Assembly: GCA_036396115.1 (NCBI GenBank)
Contig: DASWLN010000168.1
Span: forward strand, 3,362 to 67,361
From: Candidatus Zixiibacteriota bacterium
Lineage (GTDB): Bacteria; Zixibacteria; MSB-5A5; DASWLN01
Length of the DNA: 64,000 bases
Direction of reading: 5' to 3'
Both the position numbers and the translations under genes were made by a program. The notes below the pieces were generated by a model. That model was not told where the DNA came from and made no database searches. It saw nothing but the letters and a program-made list of their open reading frames with translations. Positions 3,710 to 63,809 of the stretch are shown in pieces. The first letter of the stretch is position 1. The number at the start of each line of letters is the position of its first letter.

Positions 3710-3832
3710 AGCCTCCCCGTGATAAATCACGGAGCTTCCCAAATATGAAAGGCCCTCGGCTTCCCTCGGCTTCGCCGAGAGGCGAGCGAGACTTTCTGGT
3801 AGAGGCGAGTAATTATAATATAAGATGTTACA

Positions 3833-21649: not shown

Positions 21650-21915
21650 TTAAAATCCCCCTCCCTTCGACTTTGCTCAGGCCTTCGGCTCTGAGGCTCA
21701 GGCTCGAAGAGATGGTGAGGACATTCGGCTGAGCGGTTCGACCGTCCTGAGCGGCTCACCGTCGAAGGACTCAGTCGAAGCCCATATCGAACCATCAAGT
21801 CCCCCTTTTTCAAAGGGGAAGTCCTCTTTTTCCCCTCTTTGGAAAAGAGGCCCGCTTCGCCCGTCTCGCCGATGGCTCGCCGAGGCGGGCCGAATCGAGG
21901 CGAGGGCGAGGGGAG
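21650..21915. repeat. intergenic GC-rich repeat block (reverse-complement copies of the 14330 and 28361-28480 families)
   Basis: GGACTCAGTCGAAGCCCATATCGAACC..., CCCCTTTTTCAAAGGGG and CGCCGAGGCGGGCCGAATCGAGGCGAGGGCGAGGGG match 28366-28420 in reverse. Confidence 0.6.
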
Positions 21916-21945
21916 ATTCATTGAACGTAAATTAATGCGTTTGTA

Positions 21946-27816: not shown

Positions 27817-28305
27817 ATGGCCATGGTTGAGGTCAAAGTGAACGGATTAGCTCTGGATATAGTAACCAACTCCCCAGTGGTGATACTCTCCGATATTGAG
27901 TCAGACAGGCTTCTGCCAATCTGGATAGGGCATTATGAAGCCTGGGCAATTGCTATGGAGCTTTCCGGTCTTGCTTCCAAGCGGCCCCTCACTCATGATT
28001 TGATTAAATCTGCAATCGAGCTGATGGGAGGGAAGGTGGAGAAAGTGGAAGTGACTCAATTAGTTAATCAAACCTTCTATGCTAAGGTTCATATCCAGAA
28101 GAACGGCTCACTTATGGAGTTGGATGCCAGGCCTTCTGATTCTATAGCTTTAGCACTTAAGACCCAGGCACCGGTTTTTGTGGACGAGAAGCTGTTCGAG
28201 GCAAAAAGGGAAGAGATGGAAGGTAAAGAGATGGGCGATATGGAATCTTTAAAGGAACGGCTCAAAAGGATTAATCCGGAAGATTTCGGTAAGTTCTCTC
28301 TTTAA
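27817..28305 (+). CDS. bifunctional nuclease family protein (DUF151/BFN) with UVR-like C-terminal motif
   Basis: VILSDIESDRLLPIWIGHYEAWAIAMELSG matches the BFN core. C-terminus ESLKERLKRINPEDF. Confidence 0.7.
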   Translation: MAMVEVKVNGLALDIVTNSPVVILSDIESDRLLPIWIGHYEAWAIAMELSGLASKRPLTHDLIKSAIELMGGKVEKVEVTQLVNQTFYAKVHIQKNGSLMELDARPSDSIALALKTQAPVFVDEKLFEAKREEMEGKEMGDMESLKERLKRINPEDFGKFSL

Positions 28306-28360
28306 ACCCAAATTATGCATTAGAAGCGAAGCGAACTAATGCATAATTTGGGATAAATCT

Positions 28361-28485
28361 CCCCTCGCCCTCGCCTCGATTCGGCCCGCCTCGGCGAGCC
28401 ATCGGCGAGACGGGCGAAGCGGGCCTCTTTTCCAAAGAGGGGAAAAAAGAGGTCTCCCCCTTTGAAAAAGGGGGATTAAGGGGGA
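28361..28485. repeat. GC-rich repeat block (CGCCTCGGCGAG family plus CCCCTTTGAAAAAGGGGG hairpins)
   Basis: Reverse-complement match to 21790-21915. Confidence 0.6.
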
Positions 28486-28553
28486 TTTTAGAATAGATTG
28501 CATATTGCTTTAATATGTAACCTTTATCTTCTGTCAAGGGCAAAAAACGTTAT

Positions 28554-30401
28554 ATGCTAAAGAAACCATTCATATTCCTCTTAATTCTTGCGATTTTGAT
28601 TACGGCTTATTCTATTCACGCTTTAGCTCAGGCGCCGGAAAATGAGTTTAAGCAAGCCCTGTCGCTTTATTCCGATGGCAATTACAAAGAAGCCAGGGTG
28701 AGGTTCGAGAAGTTGATTTCCACCTATCCGGCAGACGAACATTTATCGATTTTCAAGTTTATGCTCTCCAAGTGCGATTACTATCTGGGAGATTACATCC
28801 TGGCTCAGAGCGGATTCAGAAGTTTTGTAACCGAGTTTCCGCAAAGCCTATATTTGGGAGATGCCCATTTCATGCTGGGGAATATTGATTATCTAGAGGG
28901 GAACAAATTTGAGGCGGCAGTGGAATACCTCAAAGCATACGATTATGCGGAGAATGAAGAGCTCAAAGGTTTAGCCTATAACTCACTTATTCCTCTTCTG
29001 AAAGTGGGTTTGAGCTTAAGTGAACACGATAGGTTGGTTCGGCAAAGCAGGGGAAGAAAATTGGCGGATGAGGTATTGTTTCAATTGGCTCAAAGGGAGC
29101 TTGAGCGTAAAAACTTTGCTGAAGCCAAGGACTTTTTGGAGCAGTATATTGAAAATTATCCTGAAGGCAGTCATCTTAAAGAAGCAGAAGAGCTTCTGAA
29201 ACCCGTGGCTTCGCCCCGAGGCGAGTATGTATCTAAGCCCACTCAAGATATATATCCGAGACTTCCCTCGGCTTCGCCGAGAGGCGAGCGTCCCGAGACG
29301 AGCAAGATAGGCGTTTTGGTACCGCTATCCGGAGTTTATCAGACTTACGGTGAGAATCTTCTGAAAGGGATAAAGCTGGCTGTGGCGAAATACTATCCCC
29401 AAAGAATTGAGCTAACAGTCAAGGACACCCAGGAGAACCCAATTGTAACCGCCCATAAGACCAAGGAGTTAATTGAGGAGAACGGCGTCATAGCCATAAT
29501 TGGTCCATTGAAAAGTGATTGTGCCGCCTCTGCTGCGGCTGTGGCTAATTGCCTTTCTGTTCCGCTGGTCTGTCCAGCCGTATCAGAGGAGGGGATAACC
29601 ACTTTGGGCAAATATATTTTTCAATTAAGCACCAGCACTGAGAAAATGGGGAGAGCAATGGCACACTATGCCACAACTAGTATGGGACTGACGGAATTTG
29701 TCATTTTGGCGCCGGATGATTCCTATGGGAGAAACACAGTGAGTGGTTTTGAGGAGGAGGTGAAACACTTAGGAGGGAAAATTGCCGCTTGCCAGTTCTA
29801 TTCTCGAGAAAGCACAGATTTTGGAAATGAATTGAGAGCCATCCGGGATATTCTTTTCAAGGAAAAGGAAAAAAGGGAGGGCGGAATAGATACCACCAAA
29901 TACGTTGACATCCAAGGCAAGCCTTTACCTCTTGATGCCATTCCAGTTCAGGTAGACGGATTTTTCCTGCCGGGTTACAGCGAGGACGTTATCCTCATCG
30001 CTCCGCAAATAGCCTTCACCAAGATAGAAACGCATCTTTTGGGGAGTGAGGGGTGGAAAAATAAAAGGATCATCGAGCTTTCCGGAGATTATGTGCAGAA
30101 GGCAGTTTTCGTCTCAGATTCCTATGAGGATGAGAATGACTCTTCTGACTTTGTTTCTTCCTATGAAAAAACCTATGCTGAAAAACCGGATAAGGTAGCT
30201 GTTTTAGGTTATGACAGTATCAAGTTCTTGGGCTTGGCCTTGGAGGGAAAGAGTTGGACCTCTCAAGAAATAGGAGACTGTTTAAGCAAAGTGAAGGATT
30301 TTGACGGAGCATCGGGCAAGTTTTTACTTAATCCTCAACATGAGAACGAGAGCTTTTCCATATTTACCATAGAGGGAAAGAAATTCAAAAAACTAGAATA
30401 G
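28554..30401 (+). CDS. TPR-domain plus type I periplasmic-binding-domain fusion protein (LpoA-like architecture)
   Basis: Signal peptide, N-terminal TPRs and a C-terminal LivK/Peripla_BP_6-like domain (IGVLVPLSGVYQTYGEN...IGPLKS). The interdomain linker carries an in-frame repeat insertion. Confidence 0.6.
   Translation: MLKKPFIFLLILAILITAYSIHALAQAPENEFKQALSLYSDGNYKEARVRFEKLISTYPADEHLSIFKFMLSKCDYYLGDYILAQSGFRSFVTEFPQSLYLGDAHFMLGNIDYLEGNKFEAAVEYLKAYDYAENEELKGLAYNSLIPLLKVGLSLSEHDRLVRQSRGRKLADEVLFQLAQRELERKNFAEAKDFLEQYIENYPEGSHLKEAEELLKPVASPRGEYVSKPTQDIYPRLPSASPRGERPETSKIGVLVPLSGVYQTYGENLLKGIKLAVAKYYPQRIELTVKDTQENPIVTAHKTKELIEENGVIAIIGPLKSDCAASAAAVANCLSVPLVCPAVSEEGITTLGKYIFQLSTSTEKMGRAMAHYATTSMGLTEFVILAPDDSYGRNTVSGFEEEVKHLGGKIAACQFYSRESTDFGNELRAIRDILFKEKEKREGGIDTTKYVDIQGKPLPLDAIPVQVDGFFLPGYSEDVILIAPQIAFTKIETHLLGSEGWKNKRIIELSGDYVQKAVFVSDSYEDENDSSDFVSSYEKTYAEKPDKVAVLGYDSIKFLGLALEGKSWTSQEIGDCLSKVKDFDGASGKFLLNPQHENESFSIFTIEGKKFKKLE
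29201..29300. repeat. in-frame copy of the CCTCGGCTTCGCCGAGAGGCGAGCG repeat inside the CDS at 28554
   Basis: Same repeat as at 3751-3792 and 63741-63795. Encodes ASPRGEYVSKPTQDIYPRLPSASPRGERPETS in the linker. Confidence 0.7.
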
Positions 30402-38400: not shown

Positions 38401-39654
38401 TTGGGACGAAAACTCTGCGCGACTCTTCTTGCACTAACCTTATCCCTAATCCCAGCCGCAGGCCGCTCAAGCGATTTTGTCCTAAGTAGTTTTGTTGAAG
38501 CCGGAAGCTGGTCCACAACACAGGACTGCGAAGAGGATCTGGATGAAACTTTCTCCTATCAGTATTATCATCTAAGATTTGAAGAGAAACTATCCACCAA
38601 GTCAAAATACAGCCTCAGCTCCTTTTTATACCATAAAAATTACACTTCCCTCGATTCCCTGGACAATTTGTCCCGCACGCTAAACTTTCTTTGGTCCTAT
38701 GATGCGGTAAAATCAGGCGCCAAGACCTTCAGTTTGGATCTGGCGCTGGGATATCGGGGAAAGCGCTACGAGGACAACAAAGCCTTTGACTATGACAAGG
38801 TGTACATCCTTCCTTCAGCCGTCTTTGTGCTAAAGGACAATTTAAAACTAGATTTCTCCTTTGGAGTGGAAAACTTCAATTACCTGTCAGGCAAAAACAA
38901 AGATGAGTTCAAGCTTTTGGGCGCAATCGGGTGTGAGAGGTTTTTCGAAAAGAAACAGTTGAAGTTGGGCCTGGGTTACAAAATAGAAAATTCAAGTAAA
39001 AGCCGGCAAGGCCGCAAGAAATTAAAACAGGATGTCTCAATAGGGGCTGTGCTCAAGCCCAAAGCCTCACTTTTGTCTGAACTTGCCTTAAAAATGACCT
39101 TTGGCCAAAGGGACACCAAAGACGATGAAGACCAAGACCAAGATTACGATTATTGCTACAGATCCTTCCTCATCCGAACCAAACACAAGCTCAAAAAGAA
39201 AGTAACCTTTGGCTTTGAGTGTGGATACTTTAAGAAAACTTATGTCAGCGCCCTTTTGGGGTACCATTCTTACCACATTGCCAACAATTGGGACTACCAA
39301 ATTCTGGATAACGAAAAGCACAAAGTAACCTTGGGGCTATGGCTTGAACACAAAAGCGTGGATTATATTGGCGGCCAAAGAAGCGACTACCGAAAGGAGA
39401 CTATCAAAACCAAAGTCAACTTCCAGACCAAAAAGGAATGGAAGCTTGGAGCTGGACTAGAAGAGAATTTTTACATATACCAAACACCAGCCAAAGACAA
39501 AAACAGGACTTATTTTGTATTTTCGCTGGAGAAAGCATTTTTCTCAAGGCGTTTTCTTTTGCAGGCTGATTTTAAAACAAGATTTACTGACTACAAATAC
39601 CAAAACGACCAGGAACAGAAGGCAGTTAGATTGGGAATTGAATATAGGTTTTAA
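38401..39654 (+). CDS. putative outer-membrane beta-barrel protein
   Basis: Signal peptide. Alternating amphipathic strands. C-terminal ...LGIEYRF with terminal Phe typical of OMPs. Confidence 0.5.
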   Translation: MGRKLCATLLALTLSLIPAAGRSSDFVLSSFVEAGSWSTTQDCEEDLDETFSYQYYHLRFEEKLSTKSKYSLSSFLYHKNYTSLDSLDNLSRTLNFLWSYDAVKSGAKTFSLDLALGYRGKRYEDNKAFDYDKVYILPSAVFVLKDNLKLDFSFGVENFNYLSGKNKDEFKLLGAIGCERFFEKKQLKLGLGYKIENSSKSRQGRKKLKQDVSIGAVLKPKASLLSELALKMTFGQRDTKDDEDQDQDYDYCYRSFLIRTKHKLKKKVTFGFECGYFKKTYVSALLGYHSYHIANNWDYQILDNEKHKVTLGLWLEHKSVDYIGGQRSDYRKETIKTKVNFQTKKEWKLGAGLEENFYIYQTPAKDKNRTYFVFSLEKAFFSRRFLLQADFKTRFTDYKYQNDQEQKAVRLGIEYRF

Positions 39655-39656
39655 AG

Positions 39657-39880
39657 GTACGGAACAGGCATGGAGCGTTCCGTACAAAAACGGCGACATT
39701 AGAAATTGTGCCCCCGTAGGGACAGGTCGGGTGGAACATCCCGCTAGAAGGTATGATAGGGAGCAGACATGCCGCCGTGGTAATGAACGGGCATGGCGCC
39801 GTAGGGACAGGTCGAGTGGAACATCCCGCTAGAAGCGTGGAACCTGTCCTTACAGAGACGTCAATATCAAACAATCCCGG
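39657..39880. repeat. island REP cluster R1 (GTACGGAACAGGCATGGAGCGTTCCGTAC, GTAGGGACAGGTCG(G/A)GTGGAACATCCCGCTAGAAG units)
   Basis: Direct copy of these units recurs at 41648-41785 on the other side of the AbiE pair. Confidence 0.8.
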
Positions 39881-40001
39881 TTATTACCGGTTCGTATGAA
39901 TCCGTGGGTACAAAATCCCCAGAGAGAATATTTATTGACATACGAAGCTGGCAAGAGTATATTATTTTCAGTTTATCAAAAAGCACCCAACGGGGTTAAA
40001 T

Positions 40002-40775
40002 GTGAAAGAAAAAGTAATAGCAAAAAAGACGCTTTCTATTAAGGAAATAGACCTCATAACGCGTTTGGAATTCTATGGGAAAGAAATCTATACCAAAGGG
40101 GAGATTGTCTCTTTCTGTGGTGGTAGCAAACCCGCGGCATACTTGATAAAGAAGTTGTTGGAAAAAAACAGATTGAGGAAGATTATCAAAAACGTCTATC
40201 TTTTTGTTCCAATGAAGGCTCCAGGTGGCCTCTGGGCTGGGAATGAGTATTTAATTGCCAAAGCTTTGGCAAGAGGAGCTCGCTATTACATAGGATATTC
40301 CGCAGTATTTAATTCCTATGGCTTTACAGATCAAGTTGCGCAAACTATGCATGTTATCAATGATAGATATTCAATGCGTAAAACAGTTTTTGGGGTCAGG
40401 TATAAGTTGATAAAAGTTTTGCCCAACCGGCTTTACGGGTTAGAGACTCGCAAAATAGACAACGAGGATGTTGTTTTCCCGAAAAAGGAACGGGCAATGA
40501 TAGATGTGTTTGAGTTTTATAATGTAAGGAAAGCATACAGCATATTAACCGACCAAATATCTGAACTTAATACGCCCCTTCTTATCAACTATCTGACGCA
40601 ATATCCTGTTCTGGGAGTGCGAAGACGCGTGGGCTATTTTCTCGAAAAACTGAGGATCAATAGAGACCTTTTGAGTAAAATAAAAGTTGGCGAAAAAGGA
40701 TACTCCCCCTTATACGACATAGGCTCAAATCAAGGAAAGATCAATAATCGATGGAGAATTGTTATCAATGGATAG
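40002..40775 (+). CDS. abiEi: type IV toxin-antitoxin antitoxin AbiEi-like transcriptional regulator
   Basis: ~257 aa with an N-terminal wHTH. Immediately upstream of, and overlapping, an AbiEii-family gene. Confidence 0.65.
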   Translation: MKEKVIAKKTLSIKEIDLITRLEFYGKEIYTKGEIVSFCGGSKPAAYLIKKLLEKNRLRKIIKNVYLFVPMKAPGGLWAGNEYLIAKALARGARYYIGYSAVFNSYGFTDQVAQTMHVINDRYSMRKTVFGVRYKLIKVLPNRLYGLETRKIDNEDVVFPKKERAMIDVFEFYNVRKAYSILTDQISELNTPLLINYLTQYPVLGVRRRVGYFLEKLRINRDLLSKIKVGEKGYSPLYDIGSNQGKINNRWRIVING

Positions 40776-41631
40776 GGACAAGCTGGCGAGAATAATACCT
40801 GTCATTGCGCAAGAATATAACTTCAGATTGGAAATCATTGAGAAAGACTTTTATTTGACCCTCATTTTGAATAGTGTTGAGTCGCATTTAAGCGACAAAA
40901 TCGTCTTCAAGGGCGGAACGCTCTTAAATAAAATTCATCTTAATTATCACAGACTGAGCGAGGATATCGATTTTACATACCTTAGTCCGGATGGCTTAGA
41001 CACCCGCTCGAAAAGATCACATGCTTTGGCCCCGATAAGAGAGAAGATGCCCGAACTGTTGAAGCTTTTGGACCTGAAAAGCGAAAAACCCGAAGGGCAA
41101 GGTTTTAATAACTCCACTCAATATGTATTCAACATTTCCTACCCTTCTTTGATTTCCGGAAAGGACGAAAACATACAGTTAGAAATTTCATTAAGACAAA
41201 CGCCTATAGATAAGCCCGTGCATAATGTCATCGCACATTTTTATAAGGATCCTTTTACGGGTGAGGATTTAATTCCCAAGAATAAGATACTCTCGCTTTC
41301 TTTAAATGAAGCGGTTGCGGAGAAACTCAAAGCTTCAATAACAAGGAAAGATGCAGCTATCCGCGATTACTATGACTTATGGTATATATCGGAGACCAAA
41401 TTCGACTTTGAAGATAAAAAGTTCCTTTACATATTCAAGAAGAAGCTTGAATCCGAGAAATACAGAGCCAATTATTCATATAATTTCGGCTTGGATCAAA
41501 AAAAGGTTGAATTGCTTCATAAGCAAATAGAGACGGAATTAATACCTGTTATTCATGTAGGTGAAAGTTTTGATCTTGATAAAGTTTTCAGGCGGTTTAA
41601 TAGGATCTTGCAGAAAATATGGCGTGCGTGA
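40759..41631 (+). CDS. abiEii: nucleotidyltransferase AbiEii/AbiGii toxin family protein (DUF1814)
   Basis: IVFKGGTLLNKIHLNYHRLSEDIDFTY matches the KGGTAL...RFSEDID NTase signature. Confidence 0.8.
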   Translation: MLSMDRDKLARIIPVIAQEYNFRLEIIEKDFYLTLILNSVESHLSDKIVFKGGTLLNKIHLNYHRLSEDIDFTYLSPDGLDTRSKRSHALAPIREKMPELLKLLDLKSEKPEGQGFNNSTQYVFNISYPSLISGKDENIQLEISLRQTPIDKPVHNVIAHFYKDPFTGEDLIPKNKILSLSLNEAVAEKLKASITRKDAAIRDYYDLWYISETKFDFEDKKFLYIFKKKLESEKYRANYSYNFGLDQKKVELLHKQIETELIPVIHVGESFDLDKVFRRFNRILQKIWRA

Positions 41632-41647
41632 TATCCGTAAAAAGATA

Positions 41648-41785
41648 GTAGGGAACGGTCGCGTGGAACATCCCGCTAAAAGCGTGGAACCTGTCCCTAC
41701 AAAAACGGTGACATTAGAAATTGTGCCCCCGTAGGGACAGGTCGCGACCTGTCCTTAACAGAGACACCAATATCACAAGTTGTTT
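41648..41785. repeat. island REP cluster R2
   Basis: GTAGGGAACGGTCGCGTGGAACATCCCGCTAAAAGCGTGGAACCTGTCCCTAC plus GTAGGGACAGGTCGCGACCTGTCC. Confidence 0.8.
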
Positions 41786-41965
41786 GGCCTCGAGTTGGGA
41801 GAATTGAGTTGACAGAGCAATGAATTTGGAGCATATAAATAGGGTAGGTAAGATTGGTAAGACAGCTTATCCGCGAGCAAAGCAAATTCGCGCAACGAAG
41901 ATAGGACGATGGTGGGTTAAGCCTGAGGATTTAGAAAGTTTTATTAAAAGCAGGAGCAACATTCA

Positions 41966-42412
41966 ATGATGAAAATGACAAAAATTAGAGACAAATTAGA
42001 TTTAATTAGAGGGGAAATTATTTCATCTACAGCAAGAGTTGAATTTATTCTGGGCTATAAGTTAAGAAAATATTTTTTCCCCAAGGCCAATAATAAAGCA
42101 ACGATTCTTTTCTGGAACGTTATTAATACTCCTTTCCTTAATTTTGATAATAAAATTAGTCTTTATGAATCAATCCCGTATTTTAAAAAATTAAAAGGTC
42201 ATTCAGAGATTAAGAAATCTTTAAGGTTTATCCAAAAATTGAGAAATAAAATGGCTCATTGGGAACTGGATGAAAAGGAAAGCGACTTGAAGAATATTGT
42301 TATGTTTACATTGGTCGGGAAATATAGAAAAATAACAATTAATGATAGTTCAATTGAAGATTATAGGAAGCATGTTAATTTTCTTCTAAACAAATTTGGT
42401 TATAGTAGATGA
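41966..42412 (+). CDS. small HEPN-domain protein (Rx4-6H motif LRNKMAH)
   Basis: 148 aa, all-helical. HEPN signature seen directly in the sequence. Sits 115 nt upstream of the PHP-ATPase gene. Confidence 0.5.
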   Translation: MMKMTKIRDKLDLIRGEIISSTARVEFILGYKLRKYFFPKANNKATILFWNVINTPFLNFDNKISLYESIPYFKKLKGHSEIKKSLRFIQKLRNKMAHWELDEKESDLKNIVMFTLVGKYRKITINDSSIEDYRKHVNFLLNKFGYSR

Positions 42413-42526
42413 ATTTATCAGGCTTCGGTACTTGGATGCATTCATTAAGGCAAGGACAAATAAGTGAGAAAGATTTATTAATTCTGTTGAATCACATGCA
42501 TTGGGAGAGAATATAGATGCTGACAG

Positions 42527-45355
42527 ATGGAACGTTGTATGGATAAAGGTGCGCATTTTTACAGGTGTGATTTTCAAGTTCACACTCCGCGTGATCTAAA
42601 TTGGGCTGGTCCCGAGGCCGTTACACCCGAAGAAAGAAAGACATATGCGGAAGAACTGATTTTGGTTTGTCGATCCAAAGGTCTCGATGCAATCGCGATC
42701 ACGGATCATCATGACTTCGCCTTCTTCCCATACATCAAACAAGCGGCTAAAGATGAGCTTGACGACAACGGTCAACGGGTTTCTGCACACAAAAGGATCG
42801 TTGTCTTTCCTGGCATTGAAGTTACTTTAACTGCTCCGAATTGCCAAGCGTTACTTATCCTCGACGCAGACTTCCCGGAGAATCTCCTTCCAAGCGTTTT
42901 AACCGCACTGGCCATCACACCTGCGCCGGCAGAACATTCAAAGCACGCGGATGTACAGCGAATTCCCCAGAATGTTGTTAGCGATCTGACGGATTTATAT
43001 CAAAAACTGAATAGTCACCAGCAACTGAAGAATCGGTTTATCGTTTTACCTAATGTGAGCGAAACCGGATGCGGCACAATGCTACGATCCGGATTTGGTA
43101 ATTTCTATAAATCAATGCCATGCGTTGGTGGCTACACGGACGGCCCAGTGTCGCAATTTGGTACCGGGAACTTATCGATTGTTCGAGGAGAAAATCGAGA
43201 GTACGGTTTTAAGGCGATCGGAATCTTTCAAACATCTGATAATAGAAAACGCAATCACGAAGACCTCGGCAAATACACCACATGGGTTAAGTGGTCTGAG
43301 CCAACAGCGGAGGCCTTAAGACAGGCGTGTTTAGCAAAAGAATCAAGGATATCGCAAGAAGTTCCTTTGTTACCACCGGTATTCGTGACGTCAATTGATG
43401 TTTCTAACAGTAAATTCATGGGACAAATTTATCTGGAATTTAGCCAGCAATACAACGCCATAATCGGTGGTCGTGGAACTGGAAAATCAACAATCTTAGA
43501 ATATCTTAGATGGGGTTTGTGCGATCAGGTTTCAGAAATTGTACAAGATGAGGGAGAAATTCCTGGGTATCAGGAAAAAAGAAGGAAGCTTATAGAAAAG
43601 ACCCTGCTTCCGTTTGATTCTACGGTTCAGATTTCATTTGTCAAAAACAACGTTCCCCACATCCTTAGAAGAAAATCCGGAACGAACGAGATGTCTCTAA
43701 AAATTGGATCGGGGGAATTTCAACCTTGTGGTGAGGAGGATGTTAGAAACTTGCTCGCAATCCAAGCCTACAGCCAAAAGCAATTAAGCAGTGTCGGTGT
43801 CAGCATTGAGGAATTGAAAAGGCTGATTTATAGCCCCATCAGGCAAACGCTTAACGAGTTTGATTTAAAATTTGAGAAATTGCGCTCCGATATCAGAAGT
43901 TGCTATGAACTATGGCAGCAAAAAAAATTGATCGCATCTGAAATTGAGAAGGGCGAGCTTGAGCTTAAGTCATTGACTGAGCAAGTGGAAGGTCTCCGAC
44001 AAGGGCTAAAAGGAATCTCTGATCAAGATAAGGCTACAATTGCCTCCCATAAGCAATATGAAATTGTTGAGCAACATGTTGACGGTTGGCACGGAGAACT
44101 GGCGACGGCAAGAGAGGCATTAGAAACCATCAAAAGAGAACTCGCCGAGTATCCCACGACCGTACCTGATGATGTCAAATTGCCTGACACTGAGCTCATA
44201 GTTGTTACGGATATTCAGAAGACACTCAAAGACATTTTTGATGAGATTAACGCGACAGTTGATTCTTTGGGTGACAGATTAAATCCTAAGGGAGAGGTTC
44301 TGACCAAGTTAAACGATTTGATAGATAGTTGGAAAGGTGCTCTCAATCAACATAAGCGACAATATGAATCCGCAAAGCAAAAATCAACTTCACAGGAATC
44401 GACCTTAAAGCAAATCCAGATAATCGAAGATAGGGTTAAAGAAATAAGAAGATCTTTAACGGAAAGAAAGCAAGCCATGCTAAAAACAGGAGATCCCGAC
44501 ACAAAATTTAACGTCCTTAAAGAAGAGTGGTTTAACGCCCATAAGGAAAAGGCTGATTTGTTTCAAGCCCAAAGTGAGAAGTTGAATGAATTATCTGATG
44601 ATAATTTAAAAGCAACTCTAGGCAGAGGAAAGGGCACGGTAAACCTAGAAAACGTGCTAAAGGAGATAATCTCAGGTTCAAACGTGAGGAAGGAGAAAAT
44701 AGAATCTTTGTGCCAGAGAATTAAAGAGGCGACGGATCCTATTCAACAATGGAATCAAATCTTGGCCGAGTTTGAAGCAATTGCTCACTTCGATCCAACC
44801 AAAACCCCCGCCGCGACTTTACCGGCAACACCGATTTTAAGCTCTATCGGTTTTAGTGCAAACGATCTACGCAAAATAGCAGAGAAAATAAATAGCGAAA
44901 ACTGGATTGATCTATTTCTTGTTCAGTTGGACGATCTGCCTTTGTTTGAGTATCGTACTCGTGAAGGTGAGTATATAGAATTCACAGATGCTTCTGCCGG
45001 TCAACAGGCAACGTCTCTAATGAGGGTTTTATTAAATCAAGAAGGGCCTCCTCTTATAATTGATCAGCCGGAGGATGACTTGGATAATCGGATGGTTTCG
45101 GATATTGCGACTTTAATTTGGAAATCCAAGAAAACGAGGCAGTTAATATTCACAAGCCACAATGCAAACATTGTGGTTAATGGCGATGCAGAGTTGGTTG
45201 TCTGTTGCGGATACAAGGTTACGGGTGATCAATCAAAGGGTGAAATTAAGAATCAGGGAGCAATTGATATTGAGGAGATACGAGAGGAAATTATAGAGGT
45301 TATGGAGGGCGGCGAGGCAGCATTTAAGCTTCGCAAAGAAAAGTTTGGATTTTGA
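42527..45355 (+). CDS. PHP-family phosphoesterase fused to a Rad50/SMC-like ABC ATPase with a long coiled-coil insert (PplA-like defense protein)
   Basis: PHP motifs CDFQVHTPRD, AIAITDHHD, FPGIEVT. Walker A IIGGRGTGKSTILEYL. ~400 aa coiled coil. ABC signature SAGQQ, Walker B LIIDQPEDDLD, H-loop FTSHN. Alternative start at 42539. Confidence 0.7.
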   Translation: MERCMDKGAHFYRCDFQVHTPRDLNWAGPEAVTPEERKTYAEELILVCRSKGLDAIAITDHHDFAFFPYIKQAAKDELDDNGQRVSAHKRIVVFPGIEVTLTAPNCQALLILDADFPENLLPSVLTALAITPAPAEHSKHADVQRIPQNVVSDLTDLYQKLNSHQQLKNRFIVLPNVSETGCGTMLRSGFGNFYKSMPCVGGYTDGPVSQFGTGNLSIVRGENREYGFKAIGIFQTSDNRKRNHEDLGKYTTWVKWSEPTAEALRQACLAKESRISQEVPLLPPVFVTSIDVSNSKFMGQIYLEFSQQYNAIIGGRGTGKSTILEYLRWGLCDQVSEIVQDEGEIPGYQEKRRKLIEKTLLPFDSTVQISFVKNNVPHILRRKSGTNEMSLKIGSGEFQPCGEEDVRNLLAIQAYSQKQLSSVGVSIEELKRLIYSPIRQTLNEFDLKFEKLRSDIRSCYELWQQKKLIASEIEKGELELKSLTEQVEGLRQGLKGISDQDKATIASHKQYEIVEQHVDGWHGELATAREALETIKRELAEYPTTVPDDVKLPDTELIVVTDIQKTLKDIFDEINATVDSLGDRLNPKGEVLTKLNDLIDSWKGALNQHKRQYESAKQKSTSQESTLKQIQIIEDRVKEIRRSLTERKQAMLKTGDPDTKFNVLKEEWFNAHKEKADLFQAQSEKLNELSDDNLKATLGRGKGTVNLENVLKEIISGSNVRKEKIESLCQRIKEATDPIQQWNQILAEFEAIAHFDPTKTPAATLPATPILSSIGFSANDLRKIAEKINSENWIDLFLVQLDDLPLFEYRTREGEYIEFTDASAGQQATSLMRVLLNQEGPPLIIDQPEDDLDNRMVSDIATLIWKSKKTRQLIFTSHNANIVVNGDAELVVCCGYKVTGDQSKGEIKNQGAIDIEEIREEIIEVMEGGEAAFKLRKEKFGF

Positions 45356-45405
45356 TAGGTGGGAAAAATTATTAAGGCTTTATTCAATTAAACAGTAGGT
45401 AAAAA

Positions 45406-45729
45406 ATGGCGATGAAGAAATCTGAACTTTACAGCTCTCTTTGGAAAAGCTGCGATGAATTAAGAGGCGGGATGGACGCCTCACAGTATAAAGACTATGT
45501 GTTGGTTTTGTTGTTTGTCAAATACATCTCTGATAAATATGCTGGCGTGACTTACGCCCCGATCACTATTCCTCAAGGTTCAGGCTTCAAGGATATGGTG
45601 GCACTCAAGGATAAGGCGACTATTGGCGACGACATCAACAAAAGAATTATCCAAAAAATTGAAGAGGCAAATCCATCGCTTGGAAATATTGCCGTTGATT
45701 TTAACGATCCAGCAAAATTAGACAGGTGG
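45406..45729 (+). pseudogene. hsdM: type I R-M methyltransferase HsdM, N-terminal fragment only
   Basis: SELYSSLWKSCDELRGGMDASQYKDYVLVLLFVKYISDKY is the HsdM_N signature. The reading frame then runs straight into repeat cluster R3, with no MTase catalytic domain. Confidence 0.65.
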
Positions 45730-45815
45730 CCCACAGCTCTGCTGTGGGACAATTGCGGAACGGTCTCGTGGAACATCCCGCTAGTGGCGTGGAACCTGTC
45801 CTTACAGAGATGTTG
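45724..45815. repeat. island REP cluster R3 (GGTGGCCCACAGCTCTGCTGTGGG plus CGGAACGGTCTCGTGGAACATCCCGCTAGTGGCGTGGAACCTGTCC)
   Basis: Same composite as 51098-51180. Confidence 0.8.
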
Positions 45816-45908
45816 ACAGAGCAAGCGGGATTGTTCTATAATATAGAACAGTTGTATGATATGAGCGAACTTGATCTATTATAATTTCAAGAATTTTGGG
45901 TAGGGTCA

Positions 45909-46817
45909 ATGATTATTGCAGAACGACAAGTTAAACCTTTTCTCAAATGGGCCGGCGGTAAAGGTCAGCTTATCGAACAAGTTGTTTCATACTTACCCTC
46001 TTCTCTAAAGGAAGGAAGAATAAAGAAATACTTTGAACCTTTTTTGGGCGGTGGGGCTCTTTTCTTCTGGTTGGCCAAACAATACGAGTTCAGGTCGTCT
46101 TACTTGTACGAAATTAATCCCGCAGTATGTCTTTGTTATCAAGTCATCAAAAAGAATGTGAGAAAGCTGGTTAAGGAATTACAGCAGTTGGAATTAGAAT
46201 ACTTTTCGTCTACTGAAAATAGAAAAGAACAAATTTACTACGATAGACGAGAAGAATTTAATGCGTTTTTACACGGGAAGGCATCCAATGGCGTTGTCCA
46301 TCGAACTGCCCTGTTAATATTTCTTAATAAAACGTGTTATAATGGGCTCTATCGCGTGAATTCACAAGGCGAATTTAATGTTCCCTTCGGACGATATAAG
46401 AAACCTACGATTTGCGACGAAGACAATCTTCATGCTGTTAGTGAATTACTGCAAAAGGCAGAGATCGTTTGTGGGGATTTTGCGCTATGTTTGGACTATG
46501 CGGACGACAAATCTTTTGTTTACTTTGATCCGCCATATCGACCCATATCTTCGACGTCAAGCTTTACGAGTTATTCAAAGGGTGTTTTTGATGATGCCGA
46601 GCAGAAACGCTTAAGAAAGGTTTATGGTTCGCTCGATAAGAAAGGTGCTTGCATAATGCTAAGCAATTCTGACCCAAAGAACATGAACCCCGAAGATAAT
46701 TTCTTTGATGAATTGTATAACAGATATCGTATTGTAAGGTTGAATGCAACAAGACTTATCAATTGCAACGCCAACCAAAGGGGCGTTATCACCGAGATAT
46801 TAGTGATGAACTATTAA
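45909..46817 (+). CDS. Dam-family (alpha-class, D12) N6-adenine DNA methyltransferase
   Basis: PFLKWAGGKGQL motif I and DPPY motif IV (FDPPY). Confidence 0.85.
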   Translation: MIIAERQVKPFLKWAGGKGQLIEQVVSYLPSSLKEGRIKKYFEPFLGGGALFFWLAKQYEFRSSYLYEINPAVCLCYQVIKKNVRKLVKELQQLELEYFSSTENRKEQIYYDRREEFNAFLHGKASNGVVHRTALLIFLNKTCYNGLYRVNSQGEFNVPFGRYKKPTICDEDNLHAVSELLQKAEIVCGDFALCLDYADDKSFVYFDPPYRPISSTSSFTSYSKGVFDDAEQKRLRKVYGSLDKKGACIMLSNSDPKNMNPEDNFFDELYNRYRIVRLNATRLINCNANQRGVITEILVMNY

Positions 46818-46826
46818 AAAGGATGT

Positions 46827-47600
46827 ATGATGGCGAATAGCAAATCTTGGAAGAAAATTGTTGACGACTATGAAATCTTAGGGCACGACTTTGACAAATC
46901 GCCGTTTGTGCTTTCTGCAAATCAAATAAAGAGAGCATGTCAGGAATTTAAAGAAACCGGCGAGAAAGAGGTTCGTATTTTGTGCAAACAGGATAATCGT
47001 GAAGACCGACCAGACGTCTTCATTGAAAATGGTCTTTTCCTGCTACCTGTCAGAAATGGCCTCTACAATATCATTAAAGGAGAGGGATATGTTGATATTC
47101 CGGAAATAAAGAAAGAGACTGCTATTTATTCTTCAATGCTTGATTTTAAATTAGAGACAACAGAAGTTGGGAACTCTGAAATGCAACATCTTGATTATGC
47201 TTATGCTAGCAGTCTAATACGCACATTCATGGACGATTCGTCGCTTGTATTGACAATAAGGGGAAGAAAGTACACGCCGGAATTCGAATTTTCTATTGGA
47301 AAGCATCAGATTAAAGTAGCAAGCGTACAAACTGAAGTTGACGCTGGTTATGAGGGGAAAAATCAGGTTGTTTTGATTGAGGCAAAAAATTTCAGTGCAA
47401 CAAACATTATTATTCGGCAACTTTACTATCCCTTTAGACAATGGCAGGCGCGAACGAAGAAAAAAGTAGTCACTTTATTTTTTGATAAAAACCCTGGCGA
47501 TAATTCTTATTCAATTTGGCATTTTGAATTTACAGATTCCCAGAACTATAACAGCATTCGGTTAGTAAAATCTGGTAAATATAGAATCATAGAAAAATAA
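46827..47600 (+). CDS. putative type II restriction endonuclease (PD-(D/E)xK)
   Basis: EVDAGY...VVLIEAK provides the D...E-x-K core. Sandwiched between two MTases as in DpnII/MboI/LlaDCHI-type systems. Confidence 0.5.
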   Translation: MMANSKSWKKIVDDYEILGHDFDKSPFVLSANQIKRACQEFKETGEKEVRILCKQDNREDRPDVFIENGLFLLPVRNGLYNIIKGEGYVDIPEIKKETAIYSSMLDFKLETTEVGNSEMQHLDYAYASSLIRTFMDDSSLVLTIRGRKYTPEFEFSIGKHQIKVASVQTEVDAGYEGKNQVVLIEAKNFSATNIIIRQLYYPFRQWQARTKKKVVTLFFDKNPGDNSYSIWHFEFTDSQNYNSIRLVKSGKYRIIEK

Positions 47601-47617
47601 ATGAGTCATTAAGCGCA

Positions 47618-48406
47618 ATGGATAAGAAAAATACTGATGAAAGATTGGAACCTCAAACAACTACCGTCTGGTCATTTCCAAATCGTGGTAAGTGGCTGTC
47701 GCATAACGCCAAGTATCGCGGCAACTGGGCACCACAGATTCCCAACAATCTAATTCAACTTTATTCTAAGGAAGGCGATATCGTTTTAGATCCTATGGTG
47801 GGAAGTGGGACGACAATGATTGAGGCCAAGTCTCTTGGTCGCAAAGGTCTTGCTTTTGACATTCACCCCGAAGTTGTCAAGTTGGCGCAGGATGCTTGCA
47901 TGTTTTCGTCGGAACAGAAGCATTTCGAGCCAGCTATTGAACAAGGGGACGCGCGGAATTTGAAATCACTGAAAGATCATAGCGTCGATTTCATCGCAAC
48001 GCACCCGCCCTATCTGAATATCATCAAATACGGAAGAAAGGACGTTGACGGTGACCTCTCTGCTATAAGCAGCCTCAAGAAATTCTGCGATGAAATTGAA
48101 AAGGTTGCTGGAGAATGTTATCGTATTCTAAAACCCGGAAAATTCTGTGCTATTCTGATTGGTGATACGCGTCGAAAGCGGCATTATGTTCCTCTTGCCT
48201 TTTCGGTCATGCAACGCTTTCTGAAGCCAGGATTTGTATTGAAAGAAGACGTTATTAAGATTCAACACAACTGTGCGACGACCAGATACTGGAATGCACA
48301 AATAAAGGACTTCTTGCTCATTATGCACGAACATTTATTTGTTTTTCGCAAGCCAGACGTTGATGAGGACAAATTTCTTTATAAGGATAGCATCTATAAT
48401 GTTTAG
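47618..48406 (+). CDS. beta-class N6/N4 DNA methyltransferase (N6_N4_Mtase family)
   Basis: Motif IV (HPPY) precedes motif I-like DPMVGSGTT (circularly permuted order typical of beta-class). Confidence 0.8.
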   Translation: MDKKNTDERLEPQTTTVWSFPNRGKWLSHNAKYRGNWAPQIPNNLIQLYSKEGDIVLDPMVGSGTTMIEAKSLGRKGLAFDIHPEVVKLAQDACMFSSEQKHFEPAIEQGDARNLKSLKDHSVDFIATHPPYLNIIKYGRKDVDGDLSAISSLKKFCDEIEKVAGECYRILKPGKFCAILIGDTRRKRHYVPLAFSVMQRFLKPGFVLKEDVIKIQHNCATTRYWNAQIKDFLLIMHEHLFVFRKPDVDEDKFLYKDSIYNV

Positions 48407-48413
48407 GTAAAGG

Positions 48414-48443
48414 CAGGTGGCCCACAGCCCTGCTGTGGAAGAA
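48414..48443. repeat. island REP unit R4 (GGTGGCCCACAGCCCTGCTGTGG hairpin)
   Basis: Identical to the 5' part of R3 and R5. Confidence 0.7.
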
Positions 48444-48536
48444 TTTCAATAAGACCCAAGAATTGTTTGTAGTTCACACATAGAATTGGTATAAATATAG
48501 ATAGCTCCAAGTTCCCTCTAAGACAAGGAGGCTTTT

Positions 48537-49337: not shown

Positions 49338-49387
49338 CAAGAAAATTATCTTTCAGTATAATTCGTGGAAGATGGTATAATATAAAC

Positions 49388-50170: not shown

Positions 50171-50336
50171 TCTCTTTTTAAGGCACTACTCGGCAGACAA
50201 AACAGGGATTGCTTCGCTAAAGCTCACAATGACAGCTGAATACTGCAACTTAGTACGCCACCAAAGTTTTAGCGAGTGAAGGGAAAAGGGACCTTACCCG
50301 ATGGGTGGGGTACACTTGTTATCATGGGAGAAAAAC

Positions 50337-51044: not shown

Positions 51045-51097
51045 AAGAGAAAAGGTACTATATTCATCGGGGCTCAGTAATACTTACCACCCCACCG

Positions 51098-51325: not shown

Positions 51326-51345
51326 GATGAAGGCGATGTTTGTGT

Positions 51346-63653: not shown

Positions 63654-63809
63654 TGTCATCGCGAGTGACCAGGGGGAGCGTGGCGATCTCGATTTCATAA
63701 TCCATGATGTTATAAGAGATTGCCACGTCGTCCGCCGCAGGCCCTCGGCTTCCCTCGGCTTCGCCGAGAGGCGAGCGCCGAGAGGCGAGCGAGACTCCTC
63801 GCAATGACA
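63654..63809. repeat. TGTCATTGCGAG MITE copy with nested CCTCGGCTTCGCCGAGAGGCGAGCG repeat
   Basis: TGTCATCGCGAGTGACC...CCTCGGCTTCCCTCGGCTTCGCCGAGAGGCGAGCG...GACTCCTCGCAATGACA. Confidence 0.7.

What the first reader, a model, noticed from the sequence alone, without database searches (positions are those of the whole stretch)
29201..29300. GC-rich repeat inserted in-frame within a coding sequence (linker of the TPR-PBP fusion protein)
The CCTCGGCTTCGCCGAGAGGCGAGCG repeat, otherwise intergenic at 3751 and 63741 and in reverse at 21850/28366, appears twice within the ORF at 28554. It is translated as ...ASPRGEYVSKPTQDIYPRLPSASPRGERPETS..., exactly between the TPR domain and the periplasmic-binding domain. 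The reading frame is preserved, which suggests a tolerated (or exapted) linker insertion rather than a pseudogene.
Basis: seen in the sequence. Interest (0 to 1): 0.6.

Follow-up and report, generated by a model that had tools for sequence, protein, structure and literature searches.

The report
24-base repeat pasted inside a gene
A tiny GC-rich hairpin repeat of 24 bases, normally found between genes, has been inserted twice in frame into the flexible linker of a cell-wall-enzyme activator gene, and the same unit also sits inside essential genes of many unrelated bacterial phyla.

Summary
The 615-aa ORF at 28554..30401 has the architecture of LpoA (an activator of a penicillin-binding protein): TPR domain plus periplasmic-binding domain. 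It carries two extra pieces in its interdomain linker. One is 24 nt (29202-29225, PVASPRGE). The other is 48 nt (29255-29302, PRLPSASPRGERPETS).

Close orthologs show all three states. One has no insert (P0002, locus L001), one has only the first (P0003, locus L002), and this window has both. Six more distant homologs lack both, so these are gains.

The repeat resolves into a discrete 24-nt unit, CCC-NNG-GCTTCGCC-NNGA-GGCGAG. Insert 1 is one unit. Insert 2 is a unit nested in the TT^CG loop of a diverged unit, and the intergenic copies at 3753 and 63742 are nested the same way. There is no target-site duplication, and no stop codon in any of the six frames. A length of 3n makes every insertion frame-preserving.

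The same 24-mer, or a 21-nt variant, lies at filled/empty sites and inside Pfam-confirmed housekeeping genes in other phyla: Omnitrophota, Nitrospira, Planctomycetes, Patescibacteria and others.

The kind is known (Rickettsia RPEs, intragenic REPs). This unit lacks their defining tags and sizes, and what mobilises it is unknown.

The parts
28554..30401 (+). Host gene: 615-aa LpoA-like protein with a signal peptide, TPR helices 4-219, linker 217-250 and a type-I periplasmic-binding fold 250-613.
   Evidence: ORF. Pfam Peripla_BP_6, LppC, TPR_6 and YfiO. AF2 mean pLDDT 87.7. Foldseek to LivK/LivJ and to full-length LpoA 5kcn. Identical to P0001, which NCBI names a penicillin-binding protein activator from Zixibacteria.
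29202..29225 (+). Insert 1: one 24-nt unit, CCCGTGGCTTCGCCCCGAGGCGAG, translated as PVASPRGE (residues 217-224).
   Evidence: Absent from L001 and present in L002. The boundaries are unambiguous, AAA^...^TAT, with no duplication. The identical 24-mer separates two paralogous copies in Nitrospira L011.
29226..29254 (+). Native linker DNA (YVSKPTQDIY). It is an AT-rich inverted repeat, and its two feet are exactly the two insertion points.
   Evidence: The empty allele L001 10649-10677 folds as a 9-bp stem, z = -3.3. The window version gives z = -2.4.
29255..29302 (+). Insert 2: a 48-nt composite, TCCGAGACTT[CCCTCGGCTTCGCCGAGAGGCGAG]CGTCCCGAGACGAG, translated as PRLPSASPRGERPETS (residues 235-250). 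It is a diverged outer unit (10 + 14 nt) with an inner unit in its TT^CG loop.
   Evidence: Absent from L001 and L002. The outer halves joined make 24 nt and match the unit at 15 of 24 positions (read from the sequence). The same nested layout occurs at 3753, at 63742 and in L016, L086 and L108.
29265..29288 (+). Inner 24-nt unit of insert 2, CCCTCGGCTTCGCCGAGAGGCGAG. It lies within the 29-nt stretch that is identical at all three sites.
3753..3809 (+). Intergenic copy: outer-left half 3753-3762, intact inner unit 3763-3786, then a degraded right part that ends in GAGGCGAG.
63742..63789 (+). Intergenic copy: a perfect unit inside a unit, CCCTCGGCTT[CCCTCGGCTTCGCCGAGAGGCGAG]CGCCGAGAGGCGAG. It abuts a member of the ...CTCCTCGCAATGACAG repeat family.
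28309..28514 (.). Context: a 206-nt composite of other palindromic repeats in the intergenic space just upstream of the gene. L001 has nothing there, and L002 has an unrelated repeat at the same place.
   Evidence: This shows that repeat gain and loss is frequent in this lineage.

Best explanation
SHOWN. A discrete 24-nt GC-rich, hairpin-capable DNA unit (CCC-NNG-GCTTCGCC-NNGA-GGCGAG) that is dispersed in this genome was inserted at the DNA level into the linker-coding part of an LpoA-like gene. The first insertion is shared with the lineage of L002. The second is a unit nested within a diverged unit, 48 nt in total, and is seen only in this lineage. Neither insertion has a target-site duplication.

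SHOWN. The unit length is a multiple of three, and the unit has no stop codon in any of the six frames. Any insertion into an ORF therefore keeps the frame and adds 8 residues per unit.

INFERRED. The inserts are simply translated. In the frame used they encode Ser/Pro/Arg/Gly/Glu-rich, disorder-prone peptide. They survive because they lengthen an already flexible tether between two independently folding domains from about 10 to about 34 residues.

INFERRED, weaker. The unit spreads by copy-and-paste through single-stranded DNA. It appears to prefer junctions between stems and unpaired DNA, such as hairpin feet and hairpin loops. A trans-acting, sequence-specific enzyme would carry this out. 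An HUH/Y1 transposase of the RAYT/IS200 type is the leading candidate, but it is unproven.
For: Repeat and chance:
- Exact 25/29-mer at three sites, none in shuffles.

Polarity and cleanness of the insertions:
- Protein alignment shows 0, 1 and 2 inserts among ~90%-identical orthologs, and no insert in six outgroups.
- The DNA gaps are exactly 24 and 48 nt.
- Informative sites show the gene is a recombination mosaic. The linker region groups the window with L002 (95.7% and 92.5% identity against 90.0% and 88.2% with L001). One gain therefore explains the shared insert 1.

Discreteness of the unit:
- Filled and empty paralogous sites differ by exactly 24 nt in L119 and in L095 vs L055. They differ by 21 nt in L058 vs L077.
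- A single 24-nt gap separates two copies of a gene tail in Nitrospira L011. The inserted 24-mer and its peptide PVASPRGE are identical to insert 1.
- Tandem units lie exactly 24 nt apart in L129.
- Unit-in-unit nesting occurs at 63742, in L016 and in L086.

Frame neutrality:
- All unit variants are stop-free in all six frames, against 11.5% of random 24-mers from the window.

Location in the protein:
- pLDDT is below 50 only at residues 21-25 and 223-245. Both domains are confidently modelled.

Generality:
- 18 of 20 long ORFs that contain the unit in other genomes are Pfam-confirmed genes. They include RpoC, ValRS, LeuRS, ArgRS, PheRS-beta, transketolase, PurL-like, AcrB, MurE-type ligase, DnaX and PBP2/FtsI.
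- The Patescibacteria transketolase has about 28 extra residues at the unit relative to human transketolase.

Filtering by frame:
- 11 of those 18 genes use the S-P-R/L-G-E frame, against 6 expected (binomial p = 0.014).

Structure-directed targeting:
- The two insertion points are exactly the 5' and 3' feet of a 9-bp hairpin in the empty allele.
- Elsewhere the unit sits at loop edges of host palindromes, for example CCTGCCTG^CCGG^CAGGCAGG.

Not an assembly accident:
- The identical 615-aa protein is on three contigs of different length, and the ENA contig is identical over 3848 nt.
- Insert 1 is in an independent Logan assembly.
Against: - Translation of the inserts has not been observed. 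It rests only on ORF integrity.
- No mobilising enzyme was identified. tblastn with the Y1_Tnp protein of L001 finds nothing in the window, and ten further window ORFs show no transposase domain.
- The RAYT-like gene in the sister genome L001 is flanked by a different, GTAGGG-type repeat.
- The unit has neither the GTAG nor the CGTC tag that defines the REP superfamilies linked to RAYTs (read from the sequence; definition from PMC3733652).
- Predicted hairpins in the unit are weak: dG -5.4 to -6.3 kcal/mol, z about -1.6 to -1.9.
- The hairpin-foot observation is a single post-hoc case.
- Identity of a 24-mer across phyla is not what species-specific REP/RAYT pairs usually show.
- In RpoC of L059 the unit-encoded residues replace a variable loop with a net gain of only 2 aa, so that case is not a clean insertion.
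- Whether insert 2 arrived as one 48-nt piece or in two steps is unresolved.
Confidence: 0.8

Rival explanations
1. Exapted linker. The insertions happened as described, but they are kept because a longer, more flexible Ser/Pro/Arg/Gly/Glu tether improves the reach of the activator towards its synthase. Under this view they are selected for, not merely tolerated.
For: Both inserts use the same hydrophilic frame. That frame is over-represented among in-gene copies elsewhere (11 of 18, p = 0.014). The inserts lie exactly in the interdomain tether.
Against: Sister strains at ~90% identity do without one or both inserts. Frame enrichment is equally expected from purifying selection against the basic or hydrophobic alternative frames. 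Insert 1 is identical in the window and in L002, but with about 1.4 differences expected over 24 nt that carries no information.
Confidence: 0.12
2. The filled state is ancestral, and the shorter orthologs arose by precise deletions.
For: Hairpin-forming repeats are deletion-prone. Elements moved by single-strand transposases can excise precisely (background knowledge).
Against: Six outgroup homologs at 30-65% identity and the 58%-identity metagenome locus L122 are too short to hold the inserts or lack them. Insert 2 carries a 29-nt stretch identical to two intergenic copies tens of kb away, which points to recent arrival.
Confidence: 0.03
3. Assembly or binning artefact: a repeat k-mer path was spliced into the gene during metagenome assembly.
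For: The repeat is multi-copy, and short-read assemblers break or misjoin at repeats. Many unit copies in an Omnitrophota MAG lie about 90 nt from contig ends.
Against: The flanks of insert 2 (TCCGAGACTT and CGTCCCGAGACGAG) are unique in the window, and the gene is colinear on both sides. The same protein is on three contigs of different lengths, and the ENA contig is identical over 3848 nt. Insert 1 was recovered in a separate Logan run.
Confidence: 0.03
4. Chance or convergent similarity: the linker evolved an ASPRGE motif at the protein level, independently of the dispersed repeat.
For: In this frame the two in-gene copies differ only at synonymous positions (CCC CGA vs CCG AGA), which looks like protein-level constraint.
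Against: There are 29 identical nucleotides shared with non-coding copies. The two variants (CCCGTG...CCGA and CCCTCG...GAGA) are pre-existing subfamilies found in non-coding contexts in other phyla. The variable positions fall in the predicted 4-nt loop.
Confidence: 0.01
5. The unit spreads without a dedicated enzyme. Copies arise by template switching or gene conversion from ectopic copies at stalled forks, or by repair of breaks at hairpins, rather than by transposition.
For: No transposase was found nearby. There are no duplications. Insertions occur at hairpin feet and loops, where forks stall and nucleases cut. The flanks are biased to G before and C after the unit, which could reflect microhomology.
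Against: The ends are sharply defined and identical in unrelated contexts and phyla. Unrelated flanks at insert 1 (AAA^TAT) offer no microhomology. This rival concerns only the mobilisation step. It is compatible with everything else in the best explanation.
Confidence: 0.25

Closest known systems
Rickettsia palindromic elements (RPEs; Ogata et al. 2000, 2002, as summarised in PMC10969869 and PMC3733652)
   Same: Palindromic repeats are found both between genes and inserted in frame in functional protein-coding genes. There they add a peptide at positions compatible with the fold.
   Different: RPEs are about 100-150 bp and confined to Rickettsia. This unit is 24 nt (or 21), often nested, and is found with identical sequence in many phyla. 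Sequence relatedness to RPE families was not tested.
Intragenic REPs of the GTAG/CGTC superfamilies (Di Nocera et al. 2013, PMC3733652)
   Same: These are 20-40 bp GC-rich palindromes. They are mostly extragenic, with some copies inside genes including tRNA synthetase genes. Some families are inserted within host palindromes. They are hypothesised to be moved by RAYT tyrosine transposases.
   Different: The defining GTAG or CGTC tag is absent from this unit. No cognate RAYT was found. REP families are usually specific to a species or genus, whereas this 24-mer is identical in Zixibacteria, Nitrospira and Planctomycetes.
Mobile GC clusters of yeast mitochondria (e.g. GC42; Wu & Hao 2015, PMC4478555)
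   Same: Short GC-rich hairpin elements in a more AT-rich genome show presence/absence polymorphism between strains. Variation is concentrated in loops, and the mobilising mechanism is unknown.
   Different: GC42 is 42 nt with duplicated AG target nucleotides. Here the unit is 24 nt with no duplication. The host is an organelle rather than bacteria.
MITEs that create in-frame fusions (e.g. Coxiella QMITEs, PMC5896051; review PMC10969869)
   Same: Non-autonomous repeats can contribute coding sequence to host genes.
   Different: MITEs are 70-300 bp with terminal inverted repeats and target-site duplications. None of the three features holds here.
IS200/IS605 and RAYT single-strand (HUH/Y1) transposition
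   Same: Insertion leaves no target duplication. It depends on hairpins and single-stranded DNA. A Y1_Tnp gene is present in the sister genome L001 and in two unit-bearing loci, L011 and L049.
   Different: No enzyme is linked to this unit. Known elements need two hairpin ends or a tagged REP. This is a working analogy, not a membership claim.
LpoA (the host protein family)
   Same: It has an N-terminal TPR-like domain plus a C-terminal LivK-like binding fold. The Pfam LppC hit is above its cut-off, and the Foldseek alignment to full-length H. influenzae LpoA covers both domains.
   Different: There is no lipoprotein cysteine in the signal peptide. Activity on a penicillin-binding protein is untested.

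Membership tests
REP (GTAG/CGTC-tagged, RAYT-associated) | Small (20-40 bp) palindromic repeat able to form a stem-loop | tested here: met
   The unit is 24 nt and DNA folding gives a 5-8 bp stem, but weakly (dG -5.4 to -6.3, z -1.6 to -1.9).
REP (GTAG/CGTC-tagged, RAYT-associated) | GTAG or CGTC tetranucleotide at one end (PMC3733652) | tested here: not met
   Neither tetranucleotide nor its complement occurs in CCCTCGGCTTCGCCGAGAGGCGAG or CCCGTGGCTTCGCCCCGAGGCGAG (read from the sequence). Other repeats in the window do carry GTAG.
REP (GTAG/CGTC-tagged, RAYT-associated) | A RAYT (Y1_Tnp) gene flanked by the same repeat in the genome | tested here: inconclusive
   None in the 64-kb window (tblastn; Pfam of 10 ORFs). 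The Y1_Tnp gene of sister genome L001 is flanked by a different repeat. The rest of the genome was not available.
Rickettsia palindromic elements | Length about 100-150 bp encoding a conserved peptide of about 30-50 aa | tested here: not met
   Inserts are 24 and 48 nt, giving 8 and 16 aa.
Rickettsia palindromic elements | In-frame insertion in functional ORFs at structurally permissive sites | tested here: met
   Also seen in other genomes.
Rickettsia palindromic elements | Sequence similarity to an RPE family | not tested
MITE | Terminal inverted repeats of 15-30 bp | tested here: not met
   The unit ends are CCC... and ...GAG, and the whole unit is only 24 nt.
MITE | Target-site duplication | tested here: not met
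   Empty vs filled sites are AAA^TAT and ATA^CAA in the gene, and TGG^CAA in L011. None is duplicated.
Yeast mitochondrial GC clusters (GC42) | Duplicated AG target nucleotides flanking a ~42-nt element | tested here: not met
   No duplication and a 24-nt length.
LpoA-like penicillin-binding protein activator (host gene) | TPR-like N-domain plus type-I periplasmic-binding C-domain in one chain | tested here: met
   Pfam LppC 39.3 bits (cut-off 28.8), Peripla_BP_6 and TPR_6. AF2 model. Foldseek 5kcn, 5vbg and 5vat over 612-635 columns, E about 1e-15.
LpoA-like penicillin-binding protein activator (host gene) | Outer-membrane lipoprotein (lipobox cysteine) | tested here: not met
   The N-terminus MLKKPFIFLLILAILITAYSIHALAQAPE has no Cys. 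It looks like an ordinary signal peptide or anchor.
LpoA-like penicillin-binding protein activator (host gene) | Stimulates a class A penicillin-binding protein | not testable with these tools
   This needs biochemistry or genetics.

The most novel reading that the evidence does not exclude
The 21/24-nt unit is an undescribed, exceptionally small mobile DNA element shared across bacterial phyla. Its length is 3n and it is stop-free in all six frames. It inserts without duplication at stem/unpaired junctions of DNA hairpins, including its own loop, which yields nested and tandem arrays. It therefore colonises not only intergenic DNA but also loops and linkers of essential proteins such as RNA polymerase, aminoacyl-tRNA synthetases, DnaX and cell-wall enzymes. 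A still unidentified, horizontally travelling enzyme would drive it. Its size and composition may themselves be adaptations for survival in gene-dense genomes.
Probability: 0.35. Interest if true: 0.8.

Novelty: new variant of a known kind. Interest (0 to 1): 0.6.

Why it matters
- **Annotation.** Short S/P/R/G/E-rich or Arg-rich oddities in otherwise conserved proteins of uncultivated bacteria can be recognised as repeat-derived inserts. They need not be read as sequencing errors, lineage-specific motifs or pseudogene signs.
- **Protein evolution.** This is a clean natural series (0, 1 and 2 inserts in strains about 90% identical). It shows how linkers and surface loops can lengthen in 8-residue steps.
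- **Mobile DNA.** A discrete 24-nt unit has identical sequence in Zixibacteria, Nitrospira, Planctomycetes, Omnitrophota and others. It nests in hairpin loops, and no enzyme is known for it. This poses a concrete question that phylogenetic profiling and ssDNA biochemistry can address: what moves it, and how does it cross phyla?

Tried and rejected
- **Reverse copies at 21850/28366.** Rejected as the same repeat, because no minus-strand match exists at up to 3 mismatches. They share only half-motifs.
- **Rfam.** No family at gathering score in the whole window. Only sub-threshold chance hits in 28250-29400, none in the ORF.
- **Terminator and promoter scan of the gene.** Nothing at the inserts.
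- **Literature search for the repeat sequence and for the GTCATTGCGAG family.** Only unrelated primer hits. No paper found on such units in uncultivated phyla. One possibly relevant 2026 preprint could not be opened.
- **Metagenome scan for more alleles of the gene.** Only one locus, at 58% identity.
- **Other GC-rich islands in long ORFs of the window.** None matched a dispersed repeat, so this gene is the only clear in-ORF case in the 64 kb.
- **Transposase in the window.** None found.
- **Ends of the Omnitrophota contigs carrying the unit.** No transposase next to them.
- **Loop-variant census.** Not informative, because the loci were selected with the same pattern.
- **Raw hit count of the 18-mer in genome contigs.** Not evidence in itself. 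My arithmetic gives about 70 chance hits in 596 Gb, so single hits in GC-rich genomes were ignored. The argument rests on the shared extra 6 nt (49 of 96 hits in low-GC loci), on filled/empty pairs and on multiple contigs per genome.
- **Slippage origin of insert 2 from insert 1.** Rejected, because insert 2 matches distant copies exactly and differs from insert 1.
Full report
**1. The observation**

None of 100 dinucleotide-preserving shuffles gave a match. The identical stretch is in fact 29 nt (family D10). A degenerate 18-nt core, GCTTCGCCSMGAGGCGAG, adds a fourth site at 29208.

Both 29208 and 29271 lie inside ORF 28554..30401 (+, 615 aa), which reads through them as ...KPVASPRGEYVSKPTQDIYPRLPSASPRGERPETSKIG....

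The claimed reverse copies at 21850/28366 are not this repeat. There is no minus-strand match at up to 3 mismatches. Those sites share only GCTTCGCC and GAGGCGAG half-motifs and belong to a 130-nt inverted pair (I1).

**2. The host gene**

Pfam finds TPR_6/YfiO-type repeats in the N-terminal 210 residues. From residue ~250 it finds Peripla_BP_6, ANF_receptor and LppC, the last at 39.3 bits against a cut-off of 28.8. The protein is identical to a database entry that NCBI names 'penicillin-binding protein activator' from a Zixibacteria MAG.

An AlphaFold2 model built on 22 homologs has mean pLDDT 87.7. It shows TPR helices 4-219 and an alpha/beta binding fold 250-613. The only long low-confidence segment is 223-245. 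Foldseek matches the C-domain to LivK/LivJ-type binding proteins. It matches both domains to full-length Haemophilus influenzae LpoA (5kcn, 635 columns, E = 1.7e-15).

All full-length homologs share this two-domain layout, so it is the standard family architecture and not an unusual fusion. The N-terminus has no lipobox cysteine.

**3. Orthologs show the inserts are gains, and there are two**

- P0002 (locus L001, a JGI metagenome) reads ...ELFK-YMSKPTQDIY-KIGVLV... and has neither piece.
- P0003 (locus L002, an independent Logan assembly) has PVASPRGE but not the second piece.
- The window has both.
- Six homologs at 30-65% identity have neither.

In DNA the differences are clean gaps in colinear sequence:

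- 24 nt, CCCGTGGCTTCGCCCCGAGGCGAG, window 29202-29225, between AAA and TAT.
- 48 nt, window 29255-29302, between ATATATA and CAAGATA.

Neither insertion has a duplicated flank.

The three alleles form a recombination mosaic. In alignment columns 300-900, which include the linker, the window is closest to L002 (95.7% and 92.5%). In columns 900-1800 it is closest to L001 (94-96%). A single gain of insert 1 therefore suffices.

The same 615-aa protein is carried by three contigs of different lengths. The ENA contig is identical to the window over 3848 nt. A one-off assembly artefact is therefore unlikely.

**4. Anatomy of the repeat: a discrete 24-nt unit**

Insert 1 is 24 nt. Insert 2 parses as TCCGAGACTT[CCCTCGGCTTCGCCGAGAGGCGAG]CGTCCCGAGACGAG. 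Its outer 10 + 14 nt make another 24-mer that matches the unit at 15 of 24 positions. Several of the differences are G-to-A or C-to-T changes.

The intergenic copy at 63742 is CCCTCGGCTT[CCCTCGGCTTCGCCGAGAGGCGAG]CGCCGAGAGGCGAG, a perfect unit inside a perfect unit, split at TT^CG. The copy at 3753 begins the same way.

I tested discreteness on DNA from elsewhere. A scan of one genome per GTDB species for the 18-nt core returned more than 119 loci. By my arithmetic about 70 chance hits are expected in 596 Gb, so the raw count means little. However, in the 84 low-GC loci, 49 of 96 hits also share the six bases upstream (CCCTCG or CCCGTG), which were not part of the query. Several MAGs carry the unit on 3-7 contigs.

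I searched for 'empty' versions of each flank pair:

- Exact 24-nt differences: L119 against itself, L095 against L055, and nested cases.
- 21-nt differences for a shorter variant, CCCGCTTCGCCGCGAGGCGAG: L058 against L077, and L082.

In Nitrospira sp. ST-bin4 (L011), two copies of the 3' part of a Y1-transposase-like gene differ by a single 24-nt gap. The inserted sequence is identical, base for base, to insert 1 and is again read as PVASPRGE. In an IMG/VR contig, two units stand in tandem exactly 24 nt apart.

**5. Why the frame is preserved**

The unit lengths (24, 21) are multiples of three even in non-coding copies. Frame preservation is therefore a property of the element, not a lucky survivor effect. 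All variants lack stop codons in all six frames, whereas only 11.5% of random 24-mers from the window do.

Because the core is a near-palindrome, both orientations can encode S-P-R-G-E.

**6. The same thing happens in other phyla**

In low-GC loci many units lie in long ORFs. Of 20 tested, 18 have Pfam domains of real genes:

- RNA polymerase beta'
- Val-, Leu- and Arg-tRNA synthetases, PheRS beta and a class II tRNA synthetase
- transketolase
- FGAR amidotransferase
- AcrB
- DUF2207
- PEP-utilising enzyme
- PfkB kinase
- Mur ligase
- DnaX
- DNA methylase
- heptosyltransferase
- a transpeptidase (PBP2/FtsI type)
- a GDSL/TPR protein

Comparison with solved structures gives mixed detail. The Patescibacteria transketolase has about 28 extra residues at the unit relative to human transketolase. 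The ArgRS has at least 12 extra residues there. In RpoC the unit-encoded residues replace a variable loop with a net gain of only 2 residues, so that case is not a clean insertion.

All six frames occur, but 11 of the 18 genes use the S-P-R/L-G-E frame against 6 expected (p = 0.014). Adding the two window inserts and L011 gives 14 of 21 (p = 0.0018). This fits selection that retains hydrophilic, disorder-prone readings.

**7. Where it inserts**

There is no duplication and no strict target sequence. The base after the unit is C in 63 of 87 distinct contexts. The base before CCC is G in 34 of 51.

In other genomes the unit sits at loop edges of host palindromes. Examples are CCTGCCTG^CCGGCAGGCAGG, CCTGCCTACCGG^CAGGCAGG and GATCCTGAAA^CAAGTTCAGGAT. 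It also sits in its own TT^CG loop.

In the gene, the 29 nt between the two insertion points form an inverted repeat. In the empty allele this is TATATGTCT...GGACATATA, with DNA fold z = -3.3. The two inserts abut its 5' and 3' feet exactly. This is a single post-hoc case, but it points the same way as the others: insertion at junctions between a stem and unpaired DNA.

The hairpins predicted within the unit itself are modest (TCGCC-NNGA-GGCGA or CCTCGGC-TTC-GCCGAG; z -1.6 to -2.0).

**8. How it is mobilised is not known**

Sharp ends, no duplication and a taste for unpaired DNA resemble single-strand HUH/Y1 transposition (IS200/IS605, RAYT/REP). The sister genome L001 has a Y1_Tnp gene flanked by GTAGGG-type palindromes, and the window is full of such GTAG repeats. 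Two unit-bearing loci, L011 and L049, contain Y1_Tnp homologs.

Several points argue against this link:

- The unit lacks the GTAG/CGTC tag that defines the REP superfamilies (PMC3733652).
- No Y1 gene is in the window.
- Cross-phylum identity is atypical for REP/RAYT pairs.

An enzyme-independent route, by template switching or break repair at hairpins, cannot be excluded.

**9. Comparison with what is known**

In-frame palindromic repeats in functional genes are established for Rickettsia RPEs (PMC10969869; PMC3733652). They are also established for tagged REPs in several species, including in tRNA synthetase genes. Nesting of REPs in host palindromes is described too. Yeast mitochondrial GC clusters are a further analogue, with an AG target duplication (PMC4478555).

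The present unit fails the defining features of each family: RPE length, REP tag, MITE terminal repeats and duplication, and the GC42 duplication. I found no description of it. I therefore class it as a new variant of a known kind.

**10. Verdict**

- **Secure:** two DNA-level, frame-neutral insertions of a dispersed 24-nt unit into a disordered interdomain linker. The insertions are polymorphic among close strains.
- **Probable:** the inserts are translated and merely tolerated.
- **Open, and the interesting part:** what moves a 24-nt unit, why it is identical across phyla, and how often it remodels essential proteins.

Noticed in passing
window 29226-29254; L001 10649-10677: The native linker-coding DNA is itself an inverted repeat with a 9-bp stem (z = -3.3 in the empty allele). 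The two unit insertions sit exactly at its two feet.
   Followed up: partly
L011 1-176 vs 455-654 (Nitrospira sp. ST-bin4, MSXM01000050.1): Two copies of the tail of a Y1-transposase-like gene differ by one 24-nt gap. The inserted 24-mer and its peptide PVASPRGE are identical to insert 1 of the window.
   Followed up: yes
window 28554-30401 vs L001 and L002: The gene is a recombination mosaic among three strains. The 5' third, including the linker, groups the window with L002. The 3' half groups it with L001.
   Followed up: partly
window 20436, 25034, 41731, 51209, 51293, 52638, 52722, 54915, 55029: There are GTAG-tagged perfect palindromes (GTAGGGACAGGTCGCGACCTGTCCCTAC and GTAGGGAACAGGCATGCCTGTTCCCTAC). 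They are classical REP-like repeats of a different family from the finding. They resemble the repeats flanking the Y1_Tnp gene in L001 (3243-3806).
   Followed up: partly
window 39650-55070: Dense arrays of composite direct repeats (families D1-D7, units of 35-122 nt) lie between genes. These include a Fic-domain protein, DUF6933, an HI0933-like flavoprotein and a short HsdM N-terminal fragment ORF (45406-45816). They are not a CRISPR array, because the spacing is irregular at 85-5376 nt.
   Followed up: no
window 11405, 24595, 31582 (+) and 17990, 19931, 31663, 32611, 63790: The repeat family TGTCATTGCGAGGAG... / ...CTCCTCGCAATGACAG is present. In another genome (L119) the 24-nt unit is inserted in the middle of a member of this family, and an empty copy lies in the same locus.
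   Followed up: partly
window 21792-21921 and 28353-28482: A 130-nt inverted pair, 88% complementary, brackets about 6.4 kb that includes the pth and ribosomal protein S6/S18/L9 genes. The right arm is part of a 206-nt insertion absent from L001. L002 has an unrelated repeat at the same intergenic spot.
   Followed up: partly
L001 7194-7381: A 188-nt repeat-like insertion lies between the peptidyl-tRNA hydrolase and S6 genes in the sister genome. The window has only a one-base gap there (after 25730).
   Followed up: no
L129/L134 (IMGVR_UViG_3300009285_007532): A 37.6-kb contig classed as viral carries seven copies of the unit core, including a tandem pair 24 nt apart. This could be a vehicle for transfer between hosts, or it could be a misclassified cellular contig.
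   Followed up: no
L010, L032, L034, L041, L087, L093, L100, L114 (Omnitrophota MAG JBDRLG01): The unit sits in the loop of TTCTGCGG...CCGCAGAA inside a longer repeat, about 90 nt from many contig ends. That longer repeat evidently breaks the assembly. No transposase is seen on the retained side.
   Followed up: partly
L014 3060-3662 (Patescibacteria UBA10118 transketolase): An in-frame extra segment of about 28 aa is made of a larger palindrome with the 21-nt unit at its apex, at a position where human transketolase has 2-3 residues.
   Followed up: partly
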